From assembly GCA_021773175.1 (NCBI GenBank), contig JAJFKO010000059.1, positions 845-64,844 of the forward strand: a DNA stretch of 64,000 bases, written 5' to 3'. Below are positions 1 through 53,448 of this stretch, one piece after another. The stretch's first letter is position 1. The number at the start of each line of letters is the position of its first letter. Under the pieces are notes generated by a model that was not told the DNA's origin, searched no databases, and worked only from the letters and a program-made list of their open reading frames with translations. The position numbers and the translations under genes are program-made. Source of the DNA: Gammaproteobacteria bacterium. GTDB lineage: Bacteria; Pseudomonadota; Gammaproteobacteria; JAJFKO01.

Positions 1-529
1 CAGCCCGTTGTAAATAAACATCACGAGCACGCTGAAAAAACTGTTGTTGTTCTTGTTCAATACGGTCGAGCTCACCTCGGCTTTGTGTTCGTGTTAATCC
101 TTGTTCTATAGGTAAATCCAGCAAAATGGTAAGATCCGGCTTCAAATCACCAACAACCCATTCATCTAGGAACACAATTTTTTCTGCTGCTATTCCACGA
201 GCAGCACCTTGATAAGCATAACTCGCATCAACAAAGCGATCGCTAACCACCCACTTACCTGCAGCAAGTGAAGGTTTAATAACATGTTCAATATGTTGCG
301 CTCGTCCGGCAAAAAATAATAAAACTTCTGCTGTCGGCGTAATAGGTTCTTGGTGCTCATGTAATACAATATTGCGAATACGCTCAGCAACATCAGTGCC
401 GCCAGGTTCTCGCGTTAATACGAAATCAATGTTTTTATTTTTTAAAAATGACTCGATGCATTGAACCGCAGATGACTTGCCGGCACCTTCAACACCTTCA
501 ATGGTAATAAATCGACCTTTCACTTGCAT
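1..529 (-). CDS. tmk: thymidylate kinase, C-terminus cut by window start
   Basis: Hand translation of the minus strand from ATG at 529: MQVKGRFITIEGVEGAGKSS...EPGGT...DRF..SYAYQG. Classic Tmk P-loop and LID motifs. Not in the ORF track because there is no stop inside the window. The listed 190..393 ORF is a wrong-frame overlap. Confidence 0.85.
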   Translation of the reverse strand, partial: MQVKGRFITIEGVEGAGKSSAVQCIESFLKNKNIDFVLTREPGGTDVAERIRNIVLHEHQEPITPTAEVLLFFAGRAQHIEHVIKPSLAAGKWVVSDRFVDASYAYQGAARGIAAEKIVFLDEWVVGDLKPDLTILLDLPIEQGLTRTQSRGELDRIEQEQQQFFQRARDVYLQRA

Positions 530-537
530 GTTTCTTC

Positions 538-1908
538 CTATTTAAAGGCGCTAACCAAAAGTAAATTAAGTGATGGCAACAATGCTAACCAAATCGCAGC
601 AAAAGGAAAATGCTGCCTTACTCCTGTACGTTCACCAATTAATTTCATATGTGCTTGTTTATACAATAGAATCACCAAAACAACAAATAAAATTAACAAT
701 CCATAGAACTGGTAAGCATATCGAGTAAACATATAGGCAGGATTGTTAGCACTTTGAGCAGGAACGAGCATATAAGGAACATTCATTAAAAATAAACTGA
801 TTAGTAATGTAAAGATTATCGGCAAATTATAATAATATTTTTCAATAAATTTTATACTCAATAGTAAAGCAATCAATAAGACAGGAAAATAATATACCCA
901 CCCTAGCGGTGACAATAAAATCATGGCACATAAAACATAACTAAAATTCAAATCAAAACGTTGTTTGTCATCTTTCTGTTGACGTGTATTAAAAAACAAA
1001 ACACTTACAACGAATATAGCGGAAATAATATAGAGGCTGTGCGCAATTATAGGTATGTTGAGAATAGGCTGATTAAATGAGCCACCGAAAATACGCGATA
1101 AGAAACCATATAGTGATGCATTCCAACTTGCAGCAAACCAATCAGCAACGTGCAAAATCGCTATATAATCAATATAATTCTTACTGCCAACGATGCATAA
1201 GGTAATCAGATTTAAAATAATAAATGTTGTAACCATATACGCGAGTAAGCGCCAACGTTTTAAAAATAAGAAGTAAATTAAAAACATTCCAATAAACAGT
1301 TTTAAGGTTAGCAACAAGCCGAGCAGTACTCCTGCGGCTTTATCTCTACCGCTTCTTGACCAAGTCCAGCTAAATACTAAACCTGCAAATATAAATAGCC
1401 CGAGTTCCGCATAGCCAAAATTACTATAAACCGTAATGCTACCCAAAAACGCCGCGAGTCCCGCTACCATAAAGAGTAGATTATAGCGTTGTGGAAATAT
1501 TTTCTTTAACAAGTACAAAAATGCGCCAACACCCGCAATAAAAGATATTAGCAACCAACATGCAAGCGCTTGCTGATAAGTTAGTAACGCTAATGGTGTG
1601 ATTAATAATATAAAAAATGGTGAGTTTAATTCTGTCGAATGCTTTACACCAAGAAATGGAATTACTGGCGGTATATGTTTATAAACTGTCGCAATTTTTC
1701 GAACATTATAGTGCGCCCAATCTATTTTCATATACATCAGATGATGCTTAAGGAAGTCTTTAGCTGCCGAATAGAACATAGAGAAATCTGTTGCCAAATT
1801 TTTCTCTACCATTGTAACCATGATGATAGTCGTGGCTACTAGCATAACTATTAGCATACATATCGCCAACCATGTTAATACTGAACTAAAACTATTTTTT
1901 GGTGTCAT
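538..1908 (-). CDS. polytopic membrane protein, paralog 1 of 3; probable GT-C-fold glycosyltransferase (DUF2029/GT87-like)
   Basis: 456 aa with about 12 predicted TM helices. First loop carries D-F-x-x-F-Y-x-A-A. Shared motifs with the two paralogs: KLF(I/L)G(M/L)FLIYF..RWRLL, SWNASL.G...R..GG, LLSPLGW(V/L)YYFP(V/L)LL. 8-nt gap to tmk start. Confidence 0.5.
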   Translation of the reverse strand: MTPKNSFSSVLTWLAICMLIVMLVATTIIMVTMVEKNLATDFSMFYSAAKDFLKHHLMYMKIDWAHYNVRKIATVYKHIPPVIPFLGVKHSTELNSPFFILLITPLALLTYQQALACWLLISFIAGVGAFLYLLKKIFPQRYNLLFMVAGLAAFLGSITVYSNFGYAELGLFIFAGLVFSWTWSRSGRDKAAGVLLGLLLTLKLFIGMFLIYFLFLKRWRLLAYMVTTFIILNLITLCIVGSKNYIDYIAILHVADWFAASWNASLYGFLSRIFGGSFNQPILNIPIIAHSLYIISAIFVVSVLFFNTRQQKDDKQRFDLNFSYVLCAMILLSPLGWVYYFPVLLIALLLSIKFIEKYYYNLPIIFTLLISLFLMNVPYMLVPAQSANNPAYMFTRYAYQFYGLLILFVVLVILLYKQAHMKLIGERTGVRQHFPFAAIWLALLPSLNLLLVSAFK

Positions 1909-3058
1909 GCGTTTGCTTTTTTATATTTATTTCGCTGCCATCTTTATTATGACGATGAAACTTATGCTCTTTAATATATTCAATACGATGCTCTTCATCA
2001 ATTTCTTCACGCTCATGCTCGAGAATTTTCTCGTTTTTCTTAATCATTTTGGCGTTGAGAATATATTTCTTAACATTAGCATTATGTTGCTTTAATGTGG
2101 CTGAAAACACATGTGAACCATCACCCTTGCCGATAGCAACAAAATATAAATAATTCCCTGCCGCGGGATTGACCGCAGCTTTTAACGATGCCAACCCTGG
2201 TAACGCAATTGGCGTTGGCGGCAAACCTTTATTCAAATACGTGTTGTATGGCGTATTCAAACGTAGCTCGCTTCGCGTTAAAGTATTGCCATTATAATCG
2301 TAGTAGATACCATAAAGTAGTGTTGGATCAATTTGCAAGTACATATTCTTTTCCAAGCGTCTAACAATAACACCGGCAACCATCGCCCGCTCTTTTGGCA
2401 CACCGGTTTCTTTCTCAATCATAGATGCAACAATTAATGCTTGATAAGCAGTTTTAAACGGTAAATTCTTAGCGCGCTTTTGCCAAACTTTATGTAATCG
2501 TTTTTTCATCAACTGATAAGCTTTACGTAATACATAGCGATCAGATGTTCCGCGGGAAAACATATAGGTATCAGGGAAAAAACGTCCTTCAGGATGCTCG
2601 TTAGGATAACCGAGTTTTGTCATCACTTCATTTCTGCTCAATCCTTTCAACGTATGCTTTAAAAACTCATTCTTTTCTACTGCGCGTAACATGCGTTTAA
2701 AGGTCCATCCTTCAATAATCGTTAAACGATGCAAGATTACTTTACCCTTAACCATCATGTTAATTAATTGTTGCGGTTTCATTCCTGGAGAAATCTTATA
2801 TTCACCTGCCCGTAAAATTTTACCATCACGTTCAACACGAACCATAATGTCAAAAAATATAGGGTGGCGTATTAGACCTAACTTATATAATTGATGCGCA
2901 AAATCGCTAGTAGACTTACCTTTTTTAAACATGATATAAGTCGGTTGATCGCGCTTAACAAGAGGAGTATTTAAAAAGTTATACCATTCGGCTGCAAACC
3001 AGCCAATAATTAGACTCAACATGATTAAAACAATAATTGTTGTAAAACGCTTAATCAA
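1892..3058 (-). CDS. mltG: endolytic murein transglycosylase MltG (YceG-like) with an unusual K/E-rich C-terminal tail
   Basis: N-terminal TM, YceG signature GYPNEHPEGRFFPDTY, catalytic E region. About 55 extra C-terminal residues rich in K/E/H (KKNEKILEHEREEIDEEHRIEYIKEHKFHRHNK...). Overlaps paralog 1 start by 17 nt. Confidence 0.85.
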   Translation of the reverse strand: MIKRFTTIIVLIMLSLIIGWFAAEWYNFLNTPLVKRDQPTYIMFKKGKSTSDFAHQLYKLGLIRHPIFFDIMVRVERDGKILRAGEYKISPGMKPQQLINMMVKGKVILHRLTIIEGWTFKRMLRAVEKNEFLKHTLKGLSRNEVMTKLGYPNEHPEGRFFPDTYMFSRGTSDRYVLRKAYQLMKKRLHKVWQKRAKNLPFKTAYQALIVASMIEKETGVPKERAMVAGVIVRRLEKNMYLQIDPTLLYGIYYDYNGNTLTRSELRLNTPYNTYLNKGLPPTPIALPGLASLKAAVNPAAGNYLYFVAIGKGDGSHVFSATLKQHNANVKKYILNAKMIKKNEKILEHEREEIDEEHRIEYIKEHKFHRHNKDGSEINIKKQTHDTKK

Positions 3059-3070
3059 AGAATCATACTC

Positions 3071-4426
3071 CTAGAAAACATGAGGAATCACAAAAACAAC
3101 ACACAGTATTGATGGTAAAAATAACCATGGCAAAATGTTCTGCCATACTGATAACGAATCTACAGCAATAACCTTAGCCTGTGGCTCTATTAGTAGTTTT
3201 TTACGCACTATAATCAAGTTAGAAAATAATAGCAATAAACCATAGCAGGCTAGAGCATTACTGGAAAATAATTGTAACCATCCTGAAGCTATATGGTGAG
3301 CAAGACCAACAGGCCAGTTTGTTAAAATAAACGCTAAAAACATTGATGCTATCCAATATGATGAGAGCTGATAACTATACATAAAGCTAAAACATAATAA
3401 AAACACGAGCAATAGCAGCGGAAAATAATACAACCAGCCAAGCGGCGATAATAACAGCATGGTAACCAGCGTTAAGCAAAAGCCAATATCAAATTGAGAA
3501 GCACTATCATGTTCATGTTGTTGAGATTGTATTAGCGATATATCTCGCAAATACAAATAAAAACAAGTAATTGCTAATACAGCATAAGACAGAATTTCTT
3601 GTAATGACCAATGTACAATGACACTAGCATTATTCTGCCCTAATAATCGCGTTACCAACCCTAACAATGAAGCATTCCAACTTGCTGAATACCAATCAAT
3701 ACTATGAATAACATGCCAATAATTAATATATGCAGCACTACCAAAAACCCACGCCCCAATCAGCAACGTTAACAGAAAAGTAATCATTGCATAACAGAGT
3801 AATCGCCAGCGCCGTAATAATAGAAAGTAGATTAAAAACAAACCCAGAAATAATTTCATACCAAGAGTAAATCCAAGAATCACACCCGCTATATTGTCAC
3901 GACCTTTTCGCGCGCTTAGCCAAAAACAAATCAGAAAGAAGTACAGAATTAAGCCAAATTGACCATAAGCAATATTGGCATAAGTCGGAAAGTAGGCAAG
4001 CAAAAGTATAATCGATAATAATATTTGTTTGGTAGAACTTAATTTAAGGGTAAAGGTTTTTAGCAATAATAATGTCGCCATAAAACCTAATAATAAAGAT
4101 AAACATGTCCAGATAATAAAGGCCTGTGAATAACTGAGATAGGCAAAAGGCAGTATTAAACTAACAACAAATGGAGGGTTAAGATTTTCAGAATATTTAA
4201 TCAGTGGTGATAATTTCGCTCGCATACCTTTTGTTGTGAAATAAAGATTTTGTCGCTGCCGAGTATAAATTGATTCTTGATGATGGTAAGCATGCACAGA
4301 CTCATAGAAAGAGGTAAAGTCTGTCGCAATATTATTGCTGGCTTTGTAATAAGTCACACCGCCATATGCCAATAACAAGATCGGTAATAAACAAAGTATC
4401 GCTAAATAGTGGTATTTATTTAACAT
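3071..4426 (-). CDS. polytopic membrane protein, paralog 2 of 3 (GT-C/DUF2029-like)
   Basis: Same motif set as paralog 1 (NIATDFTSFYESVHAY; KLFLGLFLIYFLLLRRWRLL; SWNASLLG; LLSPLGWLYYFPLLLL). The ORF track start is 4498. The likelier start is ATG at 4426, overlapping the upstream paralog's TGA as TGATG (translational coupling). Coordinates given for that start. Confidence 0.5.
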   Translation of the reverse strand: MLNKYHYLAILCLLPILLLAYGGVTYYKASNNIATDFTSFYESVHAYHHQESIYTRQRQNLYFTTKGMRAKLSPLIKYSENLNPPFVVSLILPFAYLSYSQAFIIWTCLSLLLGFMATLLLLKTFTLKLSSTKQILLSIILLLAYFPTYANIAYGQFGLILYFFLICFWLSARKGRDNIAGVILGFTLGMKLFLGLFLIYFLLLRRWRLLCYAMITFLLTLLIGAWVFGSAAYINYWHVIHSIDWYSASWNASLLGLVTRLLGQNNASVIVHWSLQEILSYAVLAITCFYLYLRDISLIQSQQHEHDSASQFDIGFCLTLVTMLLLSPLGWLYYFPLLLLVFLLCFSFMYSYQLSSYWIASMFLAFILTNWPVGLAHHIASGWLQLFSSNALACYGLLLLFSNLIIVRKKLLIEPQAKVIAVDSLSVWQNILPWLFLPSILCVVFVIPHVF

Positions 4427-5817
4427 CAACTCACTACCGCCACAAAAGCATTTGCAATAATACTTAGCATTGAGGGTAATAACGCTAAGGCTAAACACAT
4501 CAATGTTATTTTATTTTCTCGTTGTAATATGACGCCTTTATTTTCATTTACACTTTTAGGCAGATAAAAAAATATTAAAATCAGTATCAGTAACGCATAA
4601 AAATAACTAGACGCCGCTGTTAACGAATACAATGTAGAACCAAGCTTCGCAGAATAAATTATTGTACTCGGAAGCGTAGCTAAAAAGACAACAACAATAA
4701 TTGCGTAGCGTATTTTATAATTGCCATTAAACTGATCTGTATAATGCCAAATCATAGCTAATGGCAATAATAAAACTGGAAAGTAATATACCCAGCCTAA
4801 AGGCGAAAGAAATAGCATTGCCACTACACAAAATGCATAGCCCAAATCAAACATCATCAGCTTATCAAGTGGCTTAGCATGTTTCATTGTAGGTGGTGTC
4901 TGTTGTTGTTTAGCATATTGAAATATTTTCCAGCTAAGCAAAAGCCAAATACCAACATAGATTATATTTTTCAGTAGCGGCAATGACCAAACAGAATATG
5001 GATAACGTCCACCAAATAAACGCGTTAAATAACCGAATAAAGAACCATTCCAGTTACCTTGAAACCAATGAACACCGTGTAAATTAGCAAAGTAAATAAG
5101 ATAAGCATGCTGCCCAACCAATGGTAAAGTACAAATAAAAATAAGCAGAAAACTGATAATCATTGCCGCAACCATTCGCCATTGTCGGCAAAAAATGAAA
5201 TAGATAAAGAAGAGCCCAATAAACAATTTTATCGTTGCAAGAAGTCCCAAAACTAAACCTGCGGTAACAAAAAAGCCACGTCGACATAAATACCAACTCG
5301 CAATGACACCACAACTTATTATTGTACCCACCTGTCCTAATAATATATTTGCAAGTAAAGGGAAACAAGCAAACATTAAAATATATAACGCCAGTTTTTT
5401 ATACGGGTAATGCTCTAGCAATTCCGTTCTATTAATTATCCAAACTGATAAAGCAGCCAATAGTAGAGACATAATCCCCCACACCCAATAAGCAGTGCGA
5501 TATGAAAGAAGAGCAAGAGGTGATATGAGAAAATAAAAACTCGGCATATTTAAATTTGCGGAATTACTCTGTTGCCACAGCTGCTGGATTGTTGGATGCT
5601 GAACCGCGTAATGATGCAGCGGTTTCACAAGTACGGGTTGATAGATATTTGTCCCAGCCAGTATTGCATGGGCAGAACGATAAAACATTAATAAATCGCT
5701 CGACATATTATGATTAGCTTTAAAAGCGACAACAATAATATTACAAATAATAAAAAATGATAAAACTAGAACGCCTTGCAGAAAACGTCGGCGATTGATT
5801 TGATTTAAGGCTATCAT
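4426..5817 (-). CDS. polytopic membrane protein, paralog 3 of 3 (GT-C/DUF2029-like)
   Basis: 463 aa. Motifs NMSSDLLMFYRSAHA; IKLFIGLFFIYFIFCRQWRM; NWNGSLFGYLTRLFGG; FLSPLGWVYYFPVLLL. Starts 14 nt after the fabF stop. Confidence 0.5.
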   Translation of the reverse strand: MIALNQINRRRFLQGVLVLSFFIICNIIVVAFKANHNMSSDLLMFYRSAHAILAGTNIYQPVLVKPLHHYAVQHPTIQQLWQQSNSANLNMPSFYFLISPLALLSYRTAYWVWGIMSLLLAALSVWIINRTELLEHYPYKKLALYILMFACFPLLANILLGQVGTIISCGVIASWYLCRRGFFVTAGLVLGLLATIKLFIGLFFIYFIFCRQWRMVAAMIISFLLIFICTLPLVGQHAYLIYFANLHGVHWFQGNWNGSLFGYLTRLFGGRYPYSVWSLPLLKNIIYVGIWLLLSWKIFQYAKQQQTPPTMKHAKPLDKLMMFDLGYAFCVVAMLFLSPLGWVYYFPVLLLPLAMIWHYTDQFNGNYKIRYAIIVVVFLATLPSTIIYSAKLGSTLYSLTAASSYFYALLILILIFFYLPKSVNENKGVILQRENKITLMCLALALLPSMLSIIANAFVAVVS

Positions 5818-5831
5818 TGTTTAACTACAAA

Positions 5832-7073
5832 CTAGGATATTTCAGTAAAAACTAAGCTACCATTAGTGCCACCAAAGCCAAATGAATTAGAAAGACTGAC
5901 TTTAATATTTCTTTCTTGTGCGGTATGTGCAACAAAGTTTAAATCACAACCTTCACTTGGGTTATCTAAGTTTATAGTAGGCGGCGCGACATTATCACAT
6001 AATGCCATAATTGCAAAAATAGCTTCAACAGCTCCCGCAGCTCCTAATAAATGACCCGTCATAGATTTTGTTGAACTAACCGCAAGCTTATGAGCATGAT
6101 CTTTAAAGGCCGTTTTAACCGCTAAATTCTCAACTTCATCCCCAGCCGGAGTTGATGTTGCATGCGCATTAATATAGTCAACTGAATCAGGATTTAGTTC
6201 AGCATCGCTTAATGCTGCCAGCATACTGCTCATTGCTCCTTTGCCCTCTTGTTCAGGTAAGGTCATATGATAAGCATCAGCCGTCGCCCCGAAACCTTTC
6301 AACTCAGCATAGATTTTGGCACCACGCTGCTTCGCATGTTCATATTCTTCTAAAACTAAAATACCAGCACCATCACCTAAGACAAAACCATCACGATCTT
6401 TATCCCATGGACGACTAGCACGTTGAGGGTCATCATTGCGTGTAGATAGTGCCCGCATAGAAGAGAAACCACCAACCCCTAATAATGAGGTTGCCATTTC
6501 GGCACCACCAGAAATCATTATATCGGCATCACCATATGCAACAGTTCTCGCGGCATAACCAATATTATGCGTACCCGTTGTACAAGCGGAGACTAAAGCA
6601 ATATTTGGTCCTGTTAAACCATATTTAATAGAAACCATACCTGCAGCAGTATTAATAATGGCACCAGGAATAAAGAAAGGTGAAATTTTACGCGGCCCAC
6701 CGTCAAGCCATGCTTTATAATTTGTTTCAATTTTAGCAAGACCACCGATACCAGCACCGATCGCCACACCTATTCGACTTAAATCCTGAGTATTAAGATC
6801 AAGACCAGAATCATCTAAAGCTTCTTGACTCGAGGCAAGAGAATATTGCACGAATAGAGCCGTTTTACGGATGTCTTTAGCAGACATAAAAGGACTAGGA
6901 TCGAAATTCTTAACTGTTCCACAAATTCGAGAAGCAAATCCGGAGGCATCAAAGTTATCTATCACGCCAACACCGCTTTTCGCAGCTAAAACATTCTGCC
7001 AAGTATCGGAAACATTTAAACCTAATGGTGTAACCATTCCAAGACCGGTTACCACGACGCGTCGCTTTGTCAC
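5832..7073 (-). CDS. fabF: 3-oxoacyl-ACP synthase II
   Basis: MTKRRVVVTGLGMVTPLG N-terminus. Full-length KAS II with conserved Cys/His/His regions. Confidence 0.9.
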   Translation of the reverse strand: MTKRRVVVTGLGMVTPLGLNVSDTWQNVLAAKSGVGVIDNFDASGFASRICGTVKNFDPSPFMSAKDIRKTALFVQYSLASSQEALDDSGLDLNTQDLSRIGVAIGAGIGGLAKIETNYKAWLDGGPRKISPFFIPGAIINTAAGMVSIKYGLTGPNIALVSACTTGTHNIGYAARTVAYGDADIMISGGAEMATSLLGVGGFSSMRALSTRNDDPQRASRPWDKDRDGFVLGDGAGILVLEEYEHAKQRGAKIYAELKGFGATADAYHMTLPEQEGKGAMSSMLAALSDAELNPDSVDYINAHATSTPAGDEVENLAVKTAFKDHAHKLAVSSTKSMTGHLLGAAGAVEAIFAIMALCDNVAPPTINLDNPSEGCDLNFVAHTAQERNIKVSLSNSFGFGGTNGSLVFTEIS

Positions 7074-7305: not shown

Positions 7306-7551
7306 TTATTCTTTTTCTGCTTGATGCTCTTTAATATAATTAATAGCTTGTTGAATTGTAGTGATTTTTTCAGCATCTTCATCTGGGATTTCAGTTTCAA
7401 ACTCTTCTTCAAGAGCCATAACTAATTCCACAGTATCTAAGGAATCTGCACCAAGGTCATCAACAAATGAAGCGTCATTACGAGCATCGTCTTCTTTAAC
7501 ACCTAACTGTTCAACAACGATTTTTTTTACTCTGTCATCTACTGTACTCAT
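7306..7551 (-). CDS. acpP: acyl carrier protein
   Basis: 81 aa; [20 protein letters not shown] phosphopantetheine-attachment motif. Confidence 0.9.
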
Positions 7552-7724
7552 ATGTACTATCTTCCTCTTAAAAATTGAAACTAAATCTTAAAGCCCATTT
7601 CGCGGTAGTTTATTCAAATCCATTGGCGCGTGCAACTAGCTTTTACAAAAACTCGATATATTTACCCATCGCATTTCGAAGTATGGGCGGTATTTACACA
7701 GAGTCTACGTAAAATCCTTCATTC

Positions 7725-8468
7725 TTAAGCCATAAACATTCCGCCATTCACATGAATAGTTTGTCCTGTAATATAATTTGCAGCGGGTGACGCTAAAAAT
7801 ACTGCAGCAGCAGCTATATCTTGAGGCTGTCCTAAACGCTGCATAGGAATGCCTTGAAAAATTGCCGTTTTCTGTTCATCTGTCAATTTGTTAGTCATAT
7901 CGGTTTCAATAAAACCAGGAGCAATCAAATTGGCAGTAATATTTCGTGTTGCGACTTCATAAGCTAAGGATTTAGTAAACCCCACTAAGCCCGCTTTTGC
8001 TGCCGCATAATTTGCTTGCCCAGGATTGCCTGTATAACCAACAACCGAACTAATATTAATAATGCGGCCCCAGCGTGCTTTTAACATGCCTTTTAAACAC
8101 AATTTACTCAATTTAAAAACTGCCGTAAGATTGGTTTGCATAACATCTTGCCATTCTTGGTCTTTCATCCTTAATAACAGATTGTCACAATTGATAGCCG
8201 CATTGTTGACGAGGATATCAATTTTGCCAGCTTTTTCTTGAGCATTAGCAAAAGCAGATTCGATACTGGCGTCATCTTTAGCATTAAATATAATTCCAGA
8301 CCCGGCTAAATTTGCTTCCGCCATTGTTTGAGCAAATTTCTCAGCACCTTGTTCACTTGTTGCAGTGCCAATAACTGTCGCGCCATGTTTAGCTAAATCT
8401 AATGCGATGGCATGGCCAATACCTCGACTTGCTCCAGTAACAAGAGCGATTTTGCCTTCTAAATTCAT
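7725..8468 (-). CDS. fabG: 3-oxoacyl-ACP reductase
   Basis: MNLEGKIALVTGASRGIG Rossmann motif and SDR catalytic YxxxK. Start moved to the FabG-like MNLEGK. Confidence 0.9.
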   Translation of the reverse strand: MNLEGKIALVTGASRGIGHAIALDLAKHGATVIGTATSEQGAEKFAQTMAEANLAGSGIIFNAKDDASIESAFANAQEKAGKIDILVNNAAINCDNLLLRMKDQEWQDVMQTNLTAVFKLSKLCLKGMLKARWGRIINISSVVGYTGNPGQANYAAAKAGLVGFTKSLAYEVATRNITANLIAPGFIETDMTNKLTDEQKTAIFQGIPMQRLGQPQDIAAAAVFLASPAANYITGQTIHVNGGMFMA

Positions 8469-8532
8469 CATAATCATCCCCCTATCAACATTTTCAACAG
8501 ATGAAACTAAACCTTGATTTAGCCGTTGCCAT

Positions 8533-9465
8533 CTACTGCGGAATTAAGGCTAAACGTAAACTTTCCGCAATAACGGATTGAGTTGCAATATCTTTTGTGA
8601 TGCGTTTATTTAATCCTGCAAGCACTTTGCCAGGACCACACTCCATAAAAACATCAACATTCTGTTGCGAAAGATACTCAATAATTTCAATCCAGCGTAC
8701 CGGCATATACAATTGTCGAATCAGCGCGTCTTGAATCGCACTGACCTCATTATTTATTGCGACATCAACATTATTCACAACAGCAACTTTAGGTTGCTGC
8801 CAAGTCATTGCTTTAACCACACTAATGAACTTTTCTGCAGCACTTTGCATTAACAAACAGTGAGATGGGACACTTACTTCAAGTAATTTCGCCTTCTTAG
8901 CGCCAACAGACTTAGCCTGTTCCACCGCTCTATTCACAGCATCAGTATGACCGGCAATAACAATTTGTCCCGGTGAATTATAATTTGCCGCACTTAATAT
9001 TTGTCCTTCCGCTGCTTGCTGACAAAGCACATTTACTTTGTCGGAATCTAAACCAATAATTGCAGCCATGCCTCCCTGTCCTGCCGGCACGGCTTCTTGC
9101 ATTAAGCGACCACGCTCAGCAACCAGCTTAATTGCATCAGCGAAATCAATTGCTCCAGCACAAACCAAAGCAGCATATTCCCCTAAACTATGGCCAGCGA
9201 AATAAATAGGCTCAGCTTGATTCAATTGTTGCCAAACACGATAGACGGCAACATCAGCAGCTAATAAAACGGGCTGTGTAAATTGCGTTTGATTTAATTT
9301 TTCTTCAGGACCATGTTGAGCTAACTGCCAGGCATCATAGCCCAAAATAGCAGAAGCTTGCTGAAAGGTTTCTTCAACAATAGAAAAAGTTTGAGCAAGC
9401 TCTGCAAGCATTGCGACAGCTTGTGAGCCTTGACCAGGAAAAACAAAAGCTAGATTTTGTGTCAT
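8533..9465 (-). CDS. fabD: malonyl-CoA:ACP transacylase
   Basis: AFVFPGQGSQ and GHSLGEYAAL motifs. Start set at MTQNLAFVFPG. Confidence 0.9.
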   Translation of the reverse strand: MTQNLAFVFPGQGSQAVAMLAELAQTFSIVEETFQQASAILGYDAWQLAQHGPEEKLNQTQFTQPVLLAADVAVYRVWQQLNQAEPIYFAGHSLGEYAALVCAGAIDFADAIKLVAERGRLMQEAVPAGQGGMAAIIGLDSDKVNVLCQQAAEGQILSAANYNSPGQIVIAGHTDAVNRAVEQAKSVGAKKAKLLEVSVPSHCLLMQSAAEKFISVVKAMTWQQPKVAVVNNVDVAINNEVSAIQDALIRQLYMPVRWIEIIEYLSQQNVDVFMECGPGKVLAGLNKRITKDIATQSVIAESLRLALIPQ

Positions 9466-9478
9466 ATTTTGCTCCCTA

Positions 9479-10516
9479 TTAATCATTCTCGGCTGTTTCA
9501 GTCGCTTGCATCAATACTGCAACACGATCATGAATAGTTTGAGTTACATTTTTTTCAACTTCTAACATGGCTTCTTTAATTGCATTGGTAAAACCAACAA
9601 CACTCGTACTACCGTGGCTTTTTACCACAACACCCCGCAAACCAATAAAACTTGCGCCATTATAACGAGCCGGATCGAGACTGGAATGAATTTTTTTCAA
9701 AACACCAAGGGCTATAAGACCGGTTAAACGCGTAAAAATATTTTTACCAAAGATTTTTTTGATTCGATCACTAATAAGGTGTGCGGCTCCTTCAGACACT
9801 TTCAAGGCAACATTGCCAACAAAGCCATCACAAACCACAACATCAGCAATACCTTTATAAAGCTCGGTACCTTCAATATAACCAGTATAATTTATAATTT
9901 CAGCAGCCGATAATAGTTGCGCAGTTTTTTTGACTTGTTCATTACCTTTAATTTCTTCTTCACCAATATTGAGCAATGCAACACGCGGTTTATCAAGATT
10001 GTCAACGGCTTCGGCTACAACGGAACCCATCACCGCAAATTGAAATAGATGTTCAGCTTTACAATCAACATTAGCGCCTAAATCTAAAACACGAACTTGG
10101 CCATTGGTCGTTGGTAATAGACTCAAAATAGCTGGTCGATCAATTCCTGGAAGTGTTTTCAAAACAAATCGAGCTGTTGCCATTAAGGCTCCGGTATTAC
10201 CAGCACTGACACAAGCATTGGCACAGCCCTCTTTAACTAGATTAATAGCAACACGCATAGAGGAATCTTTTTTGGTGCGTAATGCATGAGAAGGTAATTC
10301 ATCGCTGGCAACGACTTGTGATGCATGTCGAATAGATAAGCGCTCAGATTGCTGAACATTATGCTGCTTCAACTTTTCTAATAGCGTTGCCTGATCTCCT
10401 ACGATAATTAAGCGCAAATCTGCAAACTGTTGTAAAGCAGAATGCGCAGCAGGGATCACAACATCTGGACCGAAATCTCCACCCATAGCATCAAGTGCAA
10501 CTGTTACTTGATCCAA
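9479..10516 (-). CDS. plsX: phosphate acyltransferase PlsX
   Basis: ALDAMGGDFGP N-terminal signature. No fabH between plsX and fabD. Confidence 0.9.
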   Translation of the reverse strand: MDQVTVALDAMGGDFGPDVVIPAAHSALQQFADLRLIIVGDQATLLEKLKQHNVQQSERLSIRHASQVVASDELPSHALRTKKDSSMRVAINLVKEGCANACVSAGNTGALMATARFVLKTLPGIDRPAILSLLPTTNGQVRVLDLGANVDCKAEHLFQFAVMGSVVAEAVDNLDKPRVALLNIGEEEIKGNEQVKKTAQLLSAAEIINYTGYIEGTELYKGIADVVVCDGFVGNVALKVSEGAAHLISDRIKKIFGKNIFTRLTGLIALGVLKKIHSSLDPARYNGASFIGLRGVVVKSHGSTSVVGFTNAIKEAMLEVEKNVTQTIHDRVAVLMQATETAEND

Positions 10517-10522
10517 TGTTCA

Positions 10523-10732
10523 TTACTCTTCTGTTGTTGATTCTTCTTGTTCTTCTGCAACTTCTTTAACGTTAATCGGCTTACCACGGTAATAACCTTC
10601 AGCTGTCATATGATGACGAAGATGTGTTTCACCCGTAAAGCTATCAGTCGCTAACTCTTTACCAGTTAATGCATTATGAGCGCGTCGCATACCGCGTTTT
10701 GATCGAGTAGTGTGTTTACGTTGTACAGCCAT
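10523..10732 (-). CDS. rpmF: 50S ribosomal protein L32 with acidic C-terminal extension
   Basis: [22 protein letters not shown]...[15 protein letters not shown] matches L32, plus a 14-aa acidic tail [13 protein letters not shown]. No yceD upstream. Confidence 0.85.
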
Positions 10733-10885
10733 TTGCTGGAACTCCAATAAGTTTAATGAATTTGATAATGACTTCTAATTCAAACTGTTAACAGGCCGCA
10801 TCTAGTTCAAAGACAGCCCATAAAGGGGTGCAATTATACAGATTTCTGCTAACATTGTGCAAATATTATTTTCGGTCTTTCTAAG

Positions 10886-13054: not shown

Positions 13055-13834
13055 CTACTTAAAATACAAGGCCATAAGCTCTTTACTTGATTTACAACCC
13101 AGCAACTCTTTGGTTTGAGCGATAATTCCTTCCACCGTTCTATGGGAAAGACTCATATCTCGAGCGATCAATTTTGATGACTTCCCTTGTGCTAATAACG
13201 TTAAACATGTTGCTTGCTGCGTTGAAAGTTGCACAGGTGAATGCCGTGTATTATGAAAAAAGATAGAATCAGACTTTTCTCGTGTGATGGCATTGCCGTC
13301 ATCTGACAAAACGTCAACATTAAATGATTCCCGCATAGCATTCATAACAACTTGTATATGCTCATCTAAAGCATGCTTATTGCCATCTATAGTGAGAGTG
13401 CTGACGAGTTTATTTAATTCATCGCGCTCATCATGAAGATTATCGAATAATTCTTTAGTTGTTATAAATGGTAACAATGGCGCTGCGCGCCGGATATTAC
13501 GCTCCAGCTGCACACTCGTGCTAGTATCTAAAAAAACAGAAAATTCCGCTGATAGAATTTCTCTATTAATTTTTGAACAAACCATACTGGCATCAGTTAC
13601 AACGACAACATGTTCTTCTTTTATCAAATTATTTAATATTATAGTTTGACAGTGAAAGAACGAGTCTGCAGCTTCTTTACTTAAAATTTCATGTATTGGA
13701 AGGCCTATTTTACTTTCTATTCCAATATCAGCATCGATGATGCGCCAACCTAATTTCTCTCCCAATGTTTTAGCAAATAAACCTTTTCCTGCACCAGGAT
13801 GACCAATAACAAAAACTCGTTTAATCTTATTCAT
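13055..13834 (-). CDS. fusion regulator: N-terminal shikimate-kinase-like P-loop domain plus C-terminal LuxR-type HTH
   Basis: N-terminus VFVIGHPGAGKGLFAKTLGEKLGWRIIDADIGIE is a Walker A with the shikimate-kinase DxDxxIE context. C-terminus LTLLAQGKSSKLIARDMSLSHRTVEGIIAQTKELLG is a LuxR/GerE HTH. Start set at MNKIKRVF. Confidence 0.6.
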   Translation of the reverse strand: MNKIKRVFVIGHPGAGKGLFAKTLGEKLGWRIIDADIGIESKIGLPIHEILSKEAADSFFHCQTIILNNLIKEEHVVVVTDASMVCSKINREILSAEFSVFLDTSTSVQLERNIRRAAPLLPFITTKELFDNLHDERDELNKLVSTLTIDGNKHALDEHIQVVMNAMRESFNVDVLSDDGNAITREKSDSIFFHNTRHSPVQLSTQQATCLTLLAQGKSSKLIARDMSLSHRTVEGIIAQTKELLGCKSSKELMALYFK

Positions 13835-14021
13835 GTCATATCTCACTTTTAAACACTTAGATTTTAAACCTAGATTCCGCAGTTGCCATCGTAGCAAGAG
13901 CGCTTAATATACTGAATCTAAGTTAAATATAGTATCGTTGTTATTGTCGCTAAATCAATACGTAGAACTACGTTATAAATAGTGTAAATATTAAGGGGAC
14001 GTCATAAACGCCGCTTGTAAA

Positions 14022-16777: not shown

Positions 16778-16827
16778 ATGGAATTAAAATCTTTTTGGTC
16801 ATTTAAAAGTGGCCATTTTAACATACT

Positions 16828-16920
16828 TAGGACTTACGATAAACCAGCAAGGTTGAGGCGAATGTGCTTTCTAAAAGCCGACAGTATTACGTAATACGTG
16901 GGGGTTTTAGAAAGCACAGG
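16828..16920. repeat. degenerate MITE-like copy with internal 13-bp inverted repeat
   Basis: Left terminus TAGGACTTACGATAAACC matches the MITE family. Contains gtgctttctaaaa...ttttagaaagcac, a perfect 13-bp IR, around the attacgtaat core also present in the 125-bp copies. No right terminus. Confidence 0.35.
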
Positions 16921-16955
16921 TGGATTCAACTCGTTAATGCAACATGCTATATTTT

Positions 16956-16994
16956 AAAAAAACAAGAGAAAAAACGATACTGCCTTTTCTCTTG
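16956..16994 (-). terminator. rho-independent terminator-like hairpin (read on minus strand)
   Basis: Perfect 10-bp stem caagagaaaa / ttttctcttg with a 12-nt loop, followed on the minus strand by a T7 run (plus-strand aaaaaaa 16956-16962). Sits between the accessory islet and the msbA promoter. Confidence 0.45.
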
Positions 16995-17009
16995 CTTAGA
17001 TTATTTCTA

Positions 17010-17594
17010 TCATGTAAAGGTGTTGGCTTTTCTAGCTCTTTCTGGCTGTGGAGCAGCATTGAAACTCGAAGCAGTCTGCTCTTTGCGAGAAGGTTTGAAA
17101 AGCATCGACAGTGGTGTTGCTGTAGGAATAGTATTATTCGACGCACTACTAGCGAGCTGTATAGACGATGTTTTTAGCCTGATATAATGATTGAATCTTC
17201 GTGGTTCTGACGAAAAGCCCTCGGCAGATGTACAAAGAACATCAAGTGCCTCAAAGTTTGCTCCATGACAACTTGTTCTAGCTAAGGACAACCGTCCACT
17301 CGTTTTCGTCACAAAGATTCGTAGATTCTTTCTTAAAATTAGTGCTAAAGCATCCATTACAGATGGAGATTTTTCGTTAAATGGTATCCAAACGCCAGCT
17401 TTTAAGAATGAGTGTAAGTACTTCTCCACTCTGCGTACATTACTATCAAAATGCTCCAAAGTCCGCTCATAACGAACATTATGAGCCACCTCTAAACCAT
17501 CCAGTAGCAGGTTTACAAGATCTTCCCTCTGGGTGTTACCATTGACAGCTCTCGAGAACCAACCTTGATTGCTGACGTGATAAAGCAGTCATAA
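17010..17594 (-). pseudogene. unidentified gene fragment (GTG-start ORF with in-frame upstream stop; possible degraded mobile-element gene)
   Basis: The ORF-track 159-aa ORF starts with GTG. The same frame continues upstream (…LLYHVSNQGWFSRAVNGNTQREDLVNLLLDGLEVAHNVRYER…) to a stop at about 17594. Low-complexity C-terminus. Flanked by IS remnants. Confidence 0.25.
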
Positions 17595-17796
17595 AAGTAA
17601 TTTCTTTAGCAGTCCAATCCGCATAAAAAAATGGACTGTGTCGATTCAACACTGGAAACCTGCGATGAATCACTTTATGAGCGAGTTCGAGGAGCAGCTA
17701 ACTCCTTATGTTTAGAGCGAGTACTTACACAGAATTATTTACAGGCTCATATGATCGAACCTATCTTTTAACCTCTCATTCTCAGCTTTAACAAGC

Positions 17797-18060
17797 TCAT
17801 TTCTTGCAACGTGCTTTTCCTACCATAAAAATATTAATTTGATTACCAATCTCTTCGACTTGCCCCTTAATTTCTTTGATTTTTTCAGACAGTGTTTTTA
17901 TTTGTACCATATGCCTATGAACTACTTCTCTTTTTTCATCTTCCAAATCCACTTTATTAAAACATGTAGACACTTCCAGTTGTTGTATCTCTTCTATCAT
18001 GTCTAATGTAATAGCATCTTGTAACTCTTCAAGCTGATCTTGCCCCGATTTGAAGGACAC
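17797..18060 (-). CDS. small coiled-coil hypothetical protein, probably a 5'-truncated remnant
   Basis: 87 aa, heptad-like E/K/Q-rich sequence. The ORF start abuts the IS3-family left end at about 18051. Confidence 0.3.
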   Translation of the reverse strand: MSFKSGQDQLEELQDAITLDMIEEIQQLEVSTCFNKVDLEDEKREVVHRHMVQIKTLSEKIKEIKGQVEEIGNQINIFMVGKARCKK

Positions 18061-18410
18061 CTTACCAAGAGAGTAAACTAACTTTTAGTGAGGAAATAAA
18101 ATGAACGAAACAAATTAATCTAACTCATTCAACTGTAAAATATAGTCCAGAATTTAAAGGTAGAACTTTGCTCCGAGCTAAGTCTGAAGGCGTGCCTCAA
18201 GTTGCGAAAGATCTTGGGTTATCGGAATCGATACTTTATCCGTGGCGGGCCAAACAAAGGCAATTTGGACAGCCTCATGAGCTTCAAAAATAACAACAGG
18301 CTGAATTATCCCGTCTCAAATGCGAAAATGATCGTCTTACTCAGGAAAATGCCTTTCTAAAAAAGGTCGCGCAGTACTTTGCGACGGAGCAGGCGTTTTG
18401 TGGAATATGA
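18051..18410 (+). mobile_element. IS3-family element remnant: left end plus orfA with lost ATG and internal stop; orfB absent
   Basis: Starts TGAAGGACACC (IS3/IS911-like IRL, 5'-TG). Translation gives …STVKYSPEFKGRTLLRAKSEGVPQVAKDLGLSESILYPWRAKQRQFGQPHELQK*QQAELSRLKCENDRLTQENAFLKKVAQYFATEQA. That is the HTH plus leucine-zipper OrfA of IS3-family elements. No transposase catalytic ORF follows. Confidence 0.55.
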
Positions 18411-18464
18411 TTTGCGTTGTGCAATATTGGAGGTTGGGCAGACCTAGCTTAATGGTAGATAGAT

Positions 18465-18833
18465 TCAATTGCCATAACAACTACCATTCTTCAAACATGC
18501 GCGATACCCCCCAACACATGCAGCTCTATGGTCGGAGGTTGATGAAACGTTGAAACTCCCCGAGGGGGAATTATTTTGACTCATAACCACTTGTAGTTGA
18601 GATGTACTCGAGTCGTTATTAAGTCCTGCTTTAGTGGATACATAACACCCGTAACGAAGATCAGCTTTTGCTTCGCATACGGCTGTAATGCCGGGCGAAT
18701 CGGATATTAGGGTCCAATAGCTAGCGTTCTCGCAAACCTTTGAGTTGGTTGAATTAGCGGCCTGAATGGTCGAGCCAAAGATTAAGGTTGATAAATATAG
18801 TATGGATATGAATACATTAACTTTTTTGTTCAT
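18465..18833 (-). CDS. small secreted cysteine-rich protein
   Basis: 122 aa. Signal peptide MNKKVNVFISILYLSTLIFGSTIQA, then S/N/G-rich mature part with 8 Cys (CENASY…CEAKADLRYGCYV…CVGGYRACLKNGSCYGN). Local GC visibly higher than surroundings. Confidence 0.45.
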   Translation of the reverse strand: MNKKVNVFISILYLSTLIFGSTIQAANSTNSKVCENASYWTLISDSPGITAVCEAKADLRYGCYVSTKAGLNNDSSTSQLQVVMSQNNSPSGSFNVSSTSDHRAACVGGYRACLKNGSCYGN

Positions 18834-19589
18834 AATAGTGGTCCCCTTCAGTTAATATACCTTTGTCATTGGTATGCCCCAAACACGCCAGCGGCGCACA
18901 TAACAGCAGTTTAGTATTTGTTCGATGATTGACAGCATTCGTTTGTCGTTAATGCTCCTGGTAATGATGACCTCCATCATAACAAAAATATACGCGGTAT
19001 TTAATGCAGCTTTAGAGACAATCCGCAATATTTGCTTGGTATCATGATAGTGTTTTGTCTTCGAATGTGATCGCATGCTTCACCCTGTATTACTTACCAA
19101 AATTTGCTTTATATTGCTAATAATAGTATATATCTTTGTAAATTCCATACCGATTTGATCTACCTCCTCTTTCTGAAGCCCCCTATATTATATTGAGAAG
19201 CAAGCAAATTAATAATCAAAATATTTATTAGCATTTTTATCAAGCGTCTTTACAAATACTTTCTTCAATCTATAGAATAGCTACTAACGTTCTGAACACC
19301 CTGCTCTAGGTTCATTTAATCTATATTACTGGAACCTTCTTGTTAAGCGTTCGGGTGGATTAAGTCCTTAATGCAACAGCAAGCTACCAACTATACTAAA
19401 CTTATATAAAAACTTAAATTAAGATTCTATCTGCAGCAGCAGATAATCTTGAGATAGCCACTTGAAATATTCAAGATATTCAACAGAAGCCATAGCCTCA
19501 ATACCAACTGACAGGATTAAGTTAATGTTGTCTTAATAATTACCTGCATAAACTTTTACGTATACCATAGTTTTATTAGAGTTATAGAA

Positions 19590-53443: not shown

Positions 53444-53448
53444 CTGTG

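What the first reader, a model, noticed from the sequence alone, without database searches (positions are those of the whole stretch)
538..5832. Three paralogous GT-C/DUF2029-like membrane proteins spliced into the core fabF-mltG-tmk operon
The rpmF-plsX-fabD-fabG-acpP-fabF-(pabC)-mltG-tmk arrangement is among the most conserved in Proteobacteria. Here pabC is replaced by two roughly 460-aa polytopic membrane proteins and a third sits between mltG and tmk.

All junctions are tight or overlapping: a 14-nt fabF gap, a TGATG stop/start overlap, a 17-nt overlap with mltG and an 8-nt gap to tmk. They are therefore almost certainly co-transcribed and translationally coupled with fatty-acid and cell-wall genes.

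The three share a first-loop D-F-x-x-F-Y-x-A motif and several conserved blocks reminiscent of GT87/DUF2029 polyprenyl-phosphate-sugar-dependent glycosyltransferases. Embedding an accessory-looking glycosyltransferase trio into this operon is unusual and suggests an envelope glycosylation function tied to growth.

fabH (between plsX and fabD) and yceD (upstream of rpmF) are also absent.
Basis: partly seen in the sequence, partly recalled or inferred. Interest (0 to 1): 0.7.

Follow-up and report, generated by a model that had tools for sequence, protein, structure and literature searches.

The report
Three GT87 glycosyltransferase genes flanking mltG
Three related membrane sugar-transferase genes (GT87 family, the family of mycobacterial PimE) really are wedged on both sides of the cell-wall gene mltG inside the conserved fatty-acid/cell-wall operon of an unclassified gammaproteobacterium; the layout is rare but inherited, the enzymes are new members of a known family, and their sugar and target are unknown.

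Summary
On the minus strand the order is fabF, GT87-A (4426-5817), GT87-B (3071-4426), mltG (1892-3058), GT87-C (538-1908), tmk. The junctions are 14 nt, a TGATG overlap, 12 nt, a 17-nt overlap and 8 nt.

One other genome, a gammaproteobacterial MAG, has fabF-GT87-mltG-GT87-tmk with orthologues of B and C. The insertion is therefore old and inherited, and third-codon-position GC content (GC3) matches the neighbouring genes. Four other relatives have no GT87 gene in the fabF-mltG-tmk stretch; pabC is present in one and absent in three, so "pabC replaced" is unproven.

Homologues elsewhere sit in mltB-rlpA-(UbiA)-GT87-lgt blocks, beside DprE1/DprE2/UbiA genes, or in arrays upstream of waaA.

Best reading: three periplasm-facing glycosyltransferases that use polyprenyl-phosphate-sugar donors and build a constitutive envelope glycan. 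The donor (pentofuranose or mannose) and the acceptor are undetermined. These are new members of a known kind, of moderate interest.

The parts
4426..5817 (-). GT87-A, 463-aa polytopic GT-C glycosyltransferase (PF09594)
   Evidence: ORF. Pfam GT87 E 6e-26, 92.1 bits. Starts 14 nt after the fabF stop. Carries D41, the Lys of IKLF, and SPLGWVYYFP. No orthologue in L005. Its place in the family tree is unresolved.
3071..4426 (-). GT87-B, 451-aa paralogue; its ATG overlaps the stop of A (TGATG)
   Evidence: Pfam GT87 E 3.7e-28, 99.3 bits. Weak NCBIfam hit to the PimE equivalog, 46.6 bits against a cut-off of 413. Orthologue of L005:2414-3691 with 83.5% bootstrap. The ATG start is supported by alignment with that orthologue.
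1892..3058 (-). mltG (endolytic murein transglycosylase), TTG start, 388 aa with a charged C-terminal tail of about 50 aa
   Evidence: Pfam YceG E 4e-84 and TIGR00247 at 261 bits. AGGAG lies 10 nt upstream of the TTG. The 3' end overlaps GT87-C by 17 nt.
538..1908 (-). GT87-C, 456-aa paralogue between mltG and tmk
5832..7073 (-). fabF, upstream neighbour
   Evidence: ORF; 72% identical to the fabF of L005.
1..529 (-). tmk (thymidylate kinase), 5' part; ATG at 529, 8 nt after the GT87-C stop
   Evidence: Sequence; 57% identical to the tmk of L005.
7306..10747 (-). Upstream part of the same gene string: rpmF, plsX, fabD, fabG, acpP (no fabH, no yceD)
   Evidence: ORFs. Same order as E. coli apart from the missing genes. 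The relative L085 also lacks fabH.

Best explanation
The three ORFs are intact, anciently diverged paralogues of the GT87 family (Pfam PF09594), which has the GT-C fold. They belong to an uncharacterised proteobacterial subclade found mostly in Legionellales/Coxiellales-type genomes.

At least B and C were already fixed on either side of mltG in the common ancestor of this organism and the MAG in L005. Since then they have been inherited as part of the fabF-mltG-tmk gene string. They are most probably transcribed with it, which is inferred from the 8-14-nt gaps and the overlaps.

Mechanism, inferred by homology with PimE. Each enzyme sits in the inner membrane with its active site facing the periplasm. 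It takes a sugar from a polyprenyl-monophosphate-sugar donor. The invariant Asp just after the first transmembrane helix (TM1) acts as the catalytic base on the acceptor hydroxyl. The invariant Lys and Trp hold the leaving polyprenyl phosphate. Three diverged paralogues imply three different linkages or acceptor stages, so they would build or decorate one envelope glycoconjugate made constitutively during growth.

Donor and acceptor are not shown. The donor is either a polyprenyl-P-pentofuranose (D-arabinofuranose or ribofuranose) or polyprenyl-P-mannose. Gene neighbourhoods of homologues favour the pentofuranose; PimE is the precedent for mannose. The acceptor is most plausibly LPS inner core or lipid A, or another lipid-anchored glycan. 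Lipoproteins and peptidoglycan are less likely alternatives.
For: Family and fold
- Pfam GT87 at 92-99 bits against a cut-off of 25 for all three.
- A profile of the family finds PimE (9dm5) in the PDB at E 1.7e-11.
- The AlphaFold2 model of C has pLDDT 86.6 and pTM 0.90.

Catalytic apparatus
- Across 100 relatives the first-loop Asp is present in 95 of 95 ungapped sequences, the Lys aligned to PimE K195 in 99 of 99, and the Trp aligned to W319 in 99 of 99.
- The roles of these residues in PimE are taken from PMC12041525.

Old, vertical insertion
- L005 has fabF-GT87-mltG-GT87-tmk-holB-tatD with equally tight junctions.
- Orthology has bootstrap support of 97.5% (C) and 83.5% (B).
- GC3 of the three genes is 0.29-0.31, within the 0.25-0.34 of neighbouring genes.
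- Nothing resembling a mobile element lies in the stretch.

Relatives without the insert
- L085, L086, L087 and L170.

Donor hint
- Homologues sit next to UbiA, DprE2 and DprE1 in L001, L003, L006 and about 13-15 loci in all.
- L038 has pilin-GT87-Wzy_C-DprE2-DprE1-GtrA-UbiA-PAP2. This matches the lipid-linked pentofuranose scheme of PMC11127046.
- All of these homologues share the SPLGWxYYFP, LNPPF and GQ motifs with A, B and C.

Acceptor hint
- Arrays of GT87 genes lie directly upstream of waaA (L031, L129, L133).
- An mltB-rlpA-GT87-lgt block is found across Rickettsiella and Aquirickettsiella genomes.
Against: - No activity, transcript or glycan data exist for any proteobacterial GT87. Four literature searches found nothing.
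- No donor-synthesis gene (UbiA-type synthase, DprE1/E2 or GtrB-like GT2) was found. tblastn covered the whole 64-kb window. The Pfam scans covered the larger ORFs only. The rest of the genome is not available.
- PimE's H321/H322 are Tyr-Tyr here and Y92 is Asn, so donor handling differs from the only solved member.
- C and its orthologue carry Glu where PimE's essential Q163 aligns.
- Equivalence of the first-loop Asp to PimE D58 rests on topology and helix position, not on a residue-level superposition.
- Conserved synteny with lgt, rlpA or mltG within one order may reflect shared ancestry rather than function.
- The scan for other examples was pattern-limited and only the best 80 loci were kept.
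Confidence: 0.75

Rival explanations
1. They are PimE/MptC-like mannosyltransferases that use polyprenyl-phosphate-mannose to build a mannose-containing glycolipid or LPS-core branch. This is the same mechanism as the best explanation with the donor fixed as mannose.
For: - The only solved structure and the characterised members known to me in GT87 are mannosyltransferases.
- The best sequence and fold match is PimE.
- There is a weak NCBIfam hit to the PimE model.
- No UbiA or DprE genes are in the window.
- The next structural neighbours use Dol-P-Man.
Against: - NCBIfam score is 46.6 bits against a cut-off of 413.
- PimE's mannose- and phosphate-contacting H321/H322 are replaced by YY in all relatives.
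- No polyprenyl-P-mannose synthase was seen next to any homologue examined, whereas UbiA/DprE1/DprE2 sets recur.
Confidence: 0.35
2. One or more of the three are non-catalytic GT87-like partners. They would act as scaffolds that pair with a catalytic paralogue or with MltG, as proposed for mycobacterial ML2687c with Pmt.
For: - A 2026 preprint describes a GT87-like protein that lacks catalytic residues and acts as a Pmt partner.
- PIG-U, a non-catalytic GT-C-fold protein, is a strong structural neighbour.
- C carries Glu instead of the conserved Gln.
- The tight linkage with mltG is compatible with a physical complex.
Against: - All three keep the first-loop Asp, the Lys, the Trp and the other family motifs.
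- The Gln-to-Glu change in C is conserved in its orthologue and recurs in two members of the L031 array. That looks like altered specificity rather than decay.
Confidence: 0.1
3. The genes form a recently acquired accessory surface-glycan modification module, like the Gtr O-antigen seroconversion genes, that landed in the operon by chance and has no functional tie to it.
For: - GT-C modification enzymes are often horizontally mobile.
- GT87 genes are patchy within Legionella.
- The five genes of the two genomes are not monophyletic (2% bootstrap), and A has no orthologue in L005. At least A may therefore be a later gain.
Against: - B and C orthologues occupy the same two junctions in L005 although FabF is 72% and MltG 56% identical.
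- GC3 is indistinguishable from neighbouring genes.
- No integrase, insertion sequence (IS) or tRNA lies at the junctions; the nearest IS-like ORF is at 20.3 kb.
- No GtrA or GtrB genes are adjacent.
- Gaps of 8-14 nt leave no room for separate regulatory regions.
Confidence: 0.08
4. They are not glycosyltransferases at all but polytopic transporters or other membrane proteins.
For: Only the general look of a 12-13-helix membrane protein.
Against: - Pfam GT87 scores are far above threshold.
Confidence: 0.02

Closest known systems
PimE (Mycobacterium; PDB 9dm5/9dm7), a polyprenyl-P-mannose-dependent alpha-1,2-mannosyltransferase of PIM biosynthesis; CAZy GT87 / Pfam PF09594
   Same: - Same Pfam family.
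- Similar size, about 380-460 aa with no extra domain.
- An acidic residue just after TM1.
- The Lys (K195) and Trp (W319) of the phosphate site are conserved.
   Different: - Only 15-17% identity.
- Fails the NCBIfam PimE equivalog cut-off (46.6 against 413 bits).
- H321/H322 are Tyr-Tyr here, Y92 is Asn, and Q163 is Glu in paralogue C.
- The host is a Gram-negative with no known phosphatidylinositol mannosides (my own knowledge).
- Three copies are embedded in fabF-mltG-tmk rather than at a glycolipid locus.
Lipid-linked pentofuranose glycosylation systems: the mycobacterial decaprenyl-P-arabinose (DPA) pathway (UbiA/Rv3806c, Rv3807c, DprE1, DprE2) with GT-C arabinofuranosyltransferases; Citrobacter youngae PPPRS + MATE flippase + GT136 (PMC11127046); Pseudomonas aeruginosa TfpW pilin arabinosylation
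   Same: Homologues of these GT87 proteins lie directly beside UbiA, DprE2, DprE1, GtrA and PAP2 genes. In Methylobacter (L038) they also lie directly after a pilin gene. That is the same three-component logic of donor synthase, flippase and periplasmic GT-C.
   Different: - No UbiA, DprE or adjacent flippase gene in this window.
- The GT-C here is GT87, not GT136, GT53, GT85 or GT89, and not TfpW (646 aa with a TPR domain).
- Pentofuranose use is inferred from neighbours of relatives only.
Canonical gammaproteobacterial rpmF-plsX-fabHDG-acpP-fabF-pabC-mltG-tmk-holB gene string (E. coli b1089-b1099)
   Same: Same gene order and strand for rpmF, plsX, fabD, fabG, acpP, fabF, mltG and tmk.
   Different: - Two GT87 genes between fabF and mltG and one between mltG and tmk.
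- No pabC, fabH or yceD.
- Close relatives vary in pabC and fabH content.
ArnT / Rgt / Gtr-type periplasmic GT-C enzymes that modify lipid A, core or O antigen in Gram-negative bacteria
   Different: They belong to different families (GT83 and Gtr families), and similarity is much lower than to PimE. No partner synthase or flippase genes are adjacent here.

Membership tests
Pfam PF09594 / CAZy GT87 (GT-C fold glycosyltransferases) | Sequence match to the family profile above the curated gathering score | tested here: met
   A 92.1, B 99.3 and C 95.5 bits against a cut-off of 25.
Pfam PF09594 / CAZy GT87 (GT-C fold glycosyltransferases) | GT-C architecture: a polytopic membrane protein with juxtamembrane helices after TM1, closest to a solved GT87 member | tested here: met
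Pfam PF09594 / CAZy GT87 (GT-C fold glycosyltransferases) | Conserved acidic catalytic residue in the first extracytoplasmic loop (PimE D58 at the tip of JM1) | tested here: met
   The Asp in [S/T]-D-[F/L]-x-x-F-Y is present in A, B and C and in 95 of 95 ungapped relatives. In the model it starts helix 41-53, directly after TM1 (residues 9-35). Equivalence to D58 is positional; no residue-level superposition was done.
Pfam PF09594 / CAZy GT87 (GT-C fold glycosyltransferases) | Phosphate-binding Lys and Trp (PimE K195 and W319) | tested here: met
   The HMM alignment to 9dm5 pairs K195 with K203 and W319 with W337 (numbering of C). Each is present in 99 of 99 relatives.
PimE orthologue (NCBIfam NF009915, polyprenyl-P-mannose: PIM4 alpha-1,2-mannosyltransferase) | Score above the equivalog cut-off, and the PimE donor-contact residues H321/H322 and Y92 | tested here: not met
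   B scores 46.6 bits against a cut-off of 413; A and C give no hit. H321/H322 are Tyr-Tyr and Y92 is Asn.
PimE orthologue (NCBIfam NF009915, polyprenyl-P-mannose: PIM4 alpha-1,2-mannosyltransferase) | Mannosyl transfer from polyprenyl-P-mannose to a phosphatidylinositol mannoside | not testable with these tools
   This needs biochemistry. No PIM pathway genes were seen in the window.
Three-component lipid-linked pentofuranose glycosylation (UbiA-type polyprenyl phosphoribose synthase + flippase + GT-C, with or without DprE1/DprE2) | A UbiA-family synthase, with or without the DprE1/DprE2 epimerase, encoded with the GT-C gene | tested here: not met
   tblastn with the L001 UbiA, DprE1-like and DprE2-like proteins finds nothing in the 64-kb window except fabG. 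The genes are present beside homologues in L001, L003, L006, L036, L038, L061, L071 and others. The rest of this genome was not available.
Three-component lipid-linked pentofuranose glycosylation (UbiA-type polyprenyl phosphoribose synthase + flippase + GT-C, with or without DprE1/DprE2) | A dedicated donor flippase (MATE, GtrA or SMR) encoded with the GT-C gene | tested here: inconclusive
   None is adjacent. Three tandem MOP/Wzx-like genes lie 45 kb away at 50464-54996, with a sub-threshold Polysacc_synt hit. No link to the GT87 genes was shown.
Gtr-type O-antigen seroconversion module (GtrA-GtrB-Gtr*) | GtrA flippase and GtrB synthase adjacent, usually prophage-borne | tested here: not met
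   The neighbours are fabF, mltG and tmk. There are no phage or IS genes at the junctions, and GC3 is native.
Single transcription unit with fabF-mltG-tmk | One transcript spanning the junctions, with translational coupling | not testable with these tools
   The spacing (an A/B overlap, a 17-nt overlap, and gaps of 8-14 nt) is compatible. The consensus promoter/terminator scan was no different from shuffled sequence.

The most novel reading that the evidence does not exclude
This proteobacterial GT87 subclade would make a pentofuranose-containing (D-arabinofuranose or ribofuranose) glycan on a core envelope component: peptidoglycan, lipoproteins or the LPS inner core. That would be a Gram-negative counterpart of mycobacterial arabinan chemistry. 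Its expression would be hard-wired to cell-wall turnover genes: mltG here, and mltB-rlpA-lgt in Rickettsiella/Aquirickettsiella and Coxiellaceae MAGs. In that case the three paralogues around mltG would be a growth-coupled, near-essential envelope pathway that has gone unnoticed in Legionellales/Coxiellales-type bacteria.
Probability: 0.15. Interest if true: 0.75.

Novelty: new member of a known kind. Interest (0 to 1): 0.42.

Why it matters
As far as the searchable literature shows, GT87 enzymes have been studied only in Actinobacteria, where they build PIM, LM/LAM and arabinan. Here a distinct GT87 subclade is spread through Legionellales/Coxiellales-type gammaproteobacteria and sits inside housekeeping envelope operons. 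In this lineage three copies bracket mltG.

If the genes are co-expressed with fatty-acid and cell-wall genes, they point to a constitutive envelope glycan of unknown structure in a group that includes intracellular pathogens and symbionts. The links to DprE1/DprE2/UbiA genes in relatives suggest concrete sugars to look for. Culturable Legionella species that carry homologues offer a place to test this.

On its own, however, the finding is a correct family assignment plus an unusual but inherited gene order.

Tried and rejected
- Exact-sequence look-up of the window's own contig failed twice. Cluster look-up gave no accession or organism name, only one NCBI contig of 74,687 nt. The organism therefore stays 'unclassified gammaproteobacterium'. 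Its MltG is at most 56% identical to anything else, and named hits at about 47-49% are Coxiella, Coxiellaceae, Legionellaceae and Competibacteraceae.
- Two further protein searches and the JGI metagenome scan found no relative closer than L005.
- The word-index search missed even the 41%-identical L005 orthologue, so absence from it is weak evidence.
- The afdb50 fold library was unavailable.
- The promoter/terminator scan gave 35 promoter-like sites against 37.8 expected and 11 terminator-like sites against 9.2 expected, which is uninformative.
- Literature searches for DUF2029, GT87 and PF09594 returned nothing on proteobacterial members.
- Transporter identity was considered and rejected.
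- Recent horizontal acquisition of B and C was rejected.
- Recent tandem duplication as the origin of the trio was rejected. A+B and A+C clades have 0-0.5% bootstrap support and all five genes together 2%.
- 'pabC replaced' is left open, because relatives differ.
- Short contigs carrying the closest protein hits (P0002, P0007) did not show the fab-mltG context.

Full report
**1. Observation**

The genes below are all on the minus strand.

| Gene | Coordinates | Notes |
|---|---|---|
| rpmF | 10523-10747 | |
| plsX | 9479-10516 | overlaps fabD |
| fabD | 8533-9486 | |
| fabG | 7725-8477 | |
| acpP | 7306-7551 | |
| fabF | 5832-7073 | |
| GT87-A | 4426-5817 | 463 aa |
| GT87-B | 3071-4426 | 451 aa from the ATG |
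| mltG | 1892-3058 | TTG start, 388 aa |
| GT87-C | 538-1908 | 456 aa |
| tmk | ATG at 529 | runs off the window |

The junctions are:
- fabF to A: a 14-nt gap.
- A to B: a TGATG stop/start overlap.
- B to mltG: a 12-nt gap with AGGAG 10 nt upstream of the TTG.
- mltG to C: a 17-nt overlap.
- C to tmk: an 8-nt gap.

The mechanical ORF for B starts at GTG 4498. Alignment with its orthologue supports the ATG at 4426 instead.

The three membrane proteins are 30-35% identical, with pairwise E-values from 3e-37 to 2e-64. fabH and yceD are indeed missing (E. coli baseline).

**2. What the proteins are**

All three match Pfam PF09594 (GT87) at 92-99 bits against a gathering score of 25, and mltG is a normal YceG/MltG. 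None passes the NCBIfam PimE equivalog: B reaches 46.6 bits against a cut-off of 413, and A and C give no hit.

**3. Catalytic residues**

The PimE paper assigns D58 as catalytic base and Y62, Y92, Q163, K195 and W319 as essential. H321 and H322 contribute to donor binding (PMC12041525). The table gives the equivalents here, in the numbering of C.

| PimE residue | Equivalent here | Conservation among 100 relatives from 84 loci |
|---|---|---|
| K195 | K203 | 99 of 99 |
| W319 | W337 | 99 of 99 |
| Q163 | position 168 | Gln in 95 of 100; Glu in C, in its L005 orthologue and in two L031 paralogues |
| H321/H322 | Tyr-Tyr | Tyr in 96 and 98 of 100 |
| Y92 | Asn | Asn in 90 of 100 |

The Asp of the [S/T]-D-[F/L]-x-x-F-Y motif is present in 95 of 95 ungapped sequences. 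In the model it lies at the start of the first juxtamembrane helix (residues 41-53), right after TM1 (9-35). That is the place D58 occupies in PimE. I did not make a residue-level superposition, so this equivalence is positional.

All three paralogues therefore look catalytically competent. Their donor pocket differs from PimE's.

**4. How old and how rare the arrangement is**

One pattern-based scan covered one genome per GTDB species and kept 80 loci out of 135 confirmed relatives. Only L005, a gammaproteobacterial MAG (IP29b_bin.72), repeats the layout. Its order is fabG-acpP-fabF-GT87-mltG-GT87-tmk-holB-tatD. Its junctions are gaps of 13, 16 and 27 nt and one 4-nt overlap.

FabF is 72% and MltG 56% identical between the two genomes. 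Neighbour-joining (NJ) trees with 200 bootstraps pair C with the downstream L005 gene (97.5%) and B with the upstream one (83.5%). The position of A is unresolved. It is never sister to B or C alone, and the five genes are monophyletic in only 2% of replicates.

So B and C were already in place before the two lineages split. The trio consists of ancient paralogues, not a recent tandem duplication. A was either lost in L005 or gained later.

GC3 of the three genes is 0.29-0.31, within the range of their neighbours (0.25-0.34). Their lower overall GC comes from codon positions 1 and 2, that is, from membrane-protein amino-acid composition.

The JGI metagenome scan and two protein searches gave nothing closer than L005.

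**5. What relatives have at this site**

| Locus | MltG identity or source | Order at the site |
|---|---|---|
| L085 | 52% | rpmF-plsX-fabD-fabG-acpP-fabF-mltG-tmk-holB-tatD; also without fabH |
| L087 | Legionellaceae MAG | the same plus fabH |
| L086 | Coxiellaceae genome | acpP-fabF-mltG-tmk |
| L170 | 54% | canonical fabF-pabC-mltG-tmk |

The GT87 genes are therefore additions at both flanks of mltG. Whether pabC was displaced cannot be decided.

**6. Family-wide neighbourhoods**

Across 168 fetched loci, homologues fall into recurrent contexts:

- **mltB-rlpA-[UbiA]-GT87-lgt.** This block occurs in Rickettsiella, Aquirickettsiella and Coxiellaceae MAGs. About 36 loci have lgt directly downstream, and 26-30 have mltB and rlpA directly upstream.
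- **GT87 beside DprE1-like, DprE2-like and UbiA genes.** About 13-15 loci from several clades show this, including L001, L003 and L006, which belong to the same large gammaproteobacterial clade as A, B and C.
- **Pilin-linked cluster in Methylobacter (L038).** The full set is pilin-GT87-Wzy_C-DprE2-DprE1-GtrA-UbiA-PAP2. This mirrors the Pseudomonas TfpW D-arabinofuranose pilin system and the three-component pentofuranose scheme, although the GT-C there belongs to other families.
- **NUDIX-HAD-(GT87)n-waaA.** L031 has five tandem copies; L129 and L133 are similar.
- **Tandem pairs** in several Legionella species and other MAGs.

Multi-copy arrays and embedding in housekeeping envelope operons are therefore typical of this subclade. 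Only the fab-mltG-tmk location is particular to this lineage.

The window itself holds no UbiA, DprE or GT2 synthase gene. tblastn covered the whole window, and the Pfam scans covered the larger ORFs.

**7. Mechanism**

Shown:
- Family and fold.
- Conserved catalytic and phosphate-binding residues.
- Gene order and junctions.
- Orthology with L005.
- Native composition.

Inferred:
- Co-transcription with fabF, mltG and tmk. Spacing is the only evidence, and the consensus scan was uninformative.
- A periplasmic active site, from a basic N-terminus in A and C and from GT-C topology.
- Inverting transfer from a polyprenyl-monophosphate sugar.
- Three distinct linkages.

Donor: linkage of relatives to UbiA, DprE1 and DprE2 argues for a pentofuranose such as D-arabinofuranose, as do the motifs those relatives share with A, B and C. 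The precedent of PimE argues for mannose. I rate the two about equal.

Acceptor: waaA adjacency in relatives points to LPS core or lipid A. The lgt, rlpA, mltB and mltG adjacencies keep lipoproteins and peptidoglycan open.

**8. Comparison and novelty**

These are new, uncharacterised members of GT87 and not PimE orthologues. They resemble lipid-linked pentofuranose systems only through the neighbours of their relatives.

I found no paper on any proteobacterial GT87. One preprint describes a non-catalytic GT87-like partner of Pmt. That motivates the scaffold rival, but the conserved catalytic residues argue against it.

**Verdict**

These are new members of a known kind, in an unusual but inherited operon position. 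Interest is moderate. It would rise if the subclade proves to make a pentofuranose glycan on a core envelope component.

Noticed in passing
window 34514-49810 (-) and 60296-63988 (-): A 5098-aa four-module non-ribosomal peptide synthetase (NRPS) ending in a thioesterase, and a second NRPS ORF (C-A-T-TE, at least 1230 aa) that runs to the window end. The relative L005 also carries a 2428-aa ORF just after tatD, and L085 has a PKS upstream of rpmF.
   Followed up: partly
window 50464-51795, 52070-53443, 53623-54996 (+): Three tandem polytopic membrane proteins between the NRPS and hisS. The first gives a sub-threshold Polysacc_synt (Wzx/MOP flippase) hit. The second and third are visibly close paralogues (not quantified) and match no Pfam or NCBIfam family at significance. 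They could be lipid-linked sugar flippases or peptide exporters. No link to the GT87 genes was shown.
   Followed up: partly
window 13055-13897 (-): An unusual fusion of a shikimate-kinase-like P-loop domain (SKI, E 3e-20) with a C-terminal LuxR/GerE helix-turn-helix domain.
   Followed up: no
window 8533-10885: plsX and fabD overlap, so there is no fabH in the operon. Only 138 nt separate maf from rpmF, so there is no yceD. The relative L085 also lacks fabH, whereas L087 and L170 have it.
   Followed up: partly
window 1892-2040 (C-terminal ~50 residues of MltG): MltG carries a highly charged Lys/Glu/His-rich C-terminal tail that is absent from typical 335-350-aa MltG proteins. The start of GT87-C overlaps its last codons. 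The L005 MltG (374 aa) is also longer than typical MltG proteins.
   Followed up: no
window 16800-21160: A gene-poor stretch with only short ORFs that have no family match (for example 17010-17489 and 19590-20246). It is followed by an IS30-like ORF with an HTH_38 domain at 20349-21158, which may be a remnant of a mobile element.
   Followed up: no
L038 9312-16631 (Methylobacter MAG): The cluster pilin-GT87-Wzy_C(O-antigen-ligase-like)-DprE2-DprE1-GtrA-UbiA-PAP2. It is an apparent pilin D-arabinofuranosylation system built on a GT87 enzyme instead of TfpW.
   Followed up: partly
L031 7335-16672 (gammaproteobacterial MAG SMAG_U6420): NUDIX-HAD followed by five tandem GT87 paralogues overlapping by 10 nt each, then a waaA (Kdo transferase) fused to an isochorismatase domain. 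Similar blocks occur in L129 and L133.
   Followed up: partly
L013, L017, L022 and about 25 further loci (Rickettsiella, Aquirickettsiella, Coxiellaceae MAGs): A conserved block mltB(SLT_2)-rlpA-GT87-lgt, with a UbiA-family gene inserted before GT87 in L003 (and UbiA-GT87-lgt in L001 and L006). This is a second, independent association of this GT87 subclade with lytic transglycosylase genes.
   Followed up: partly
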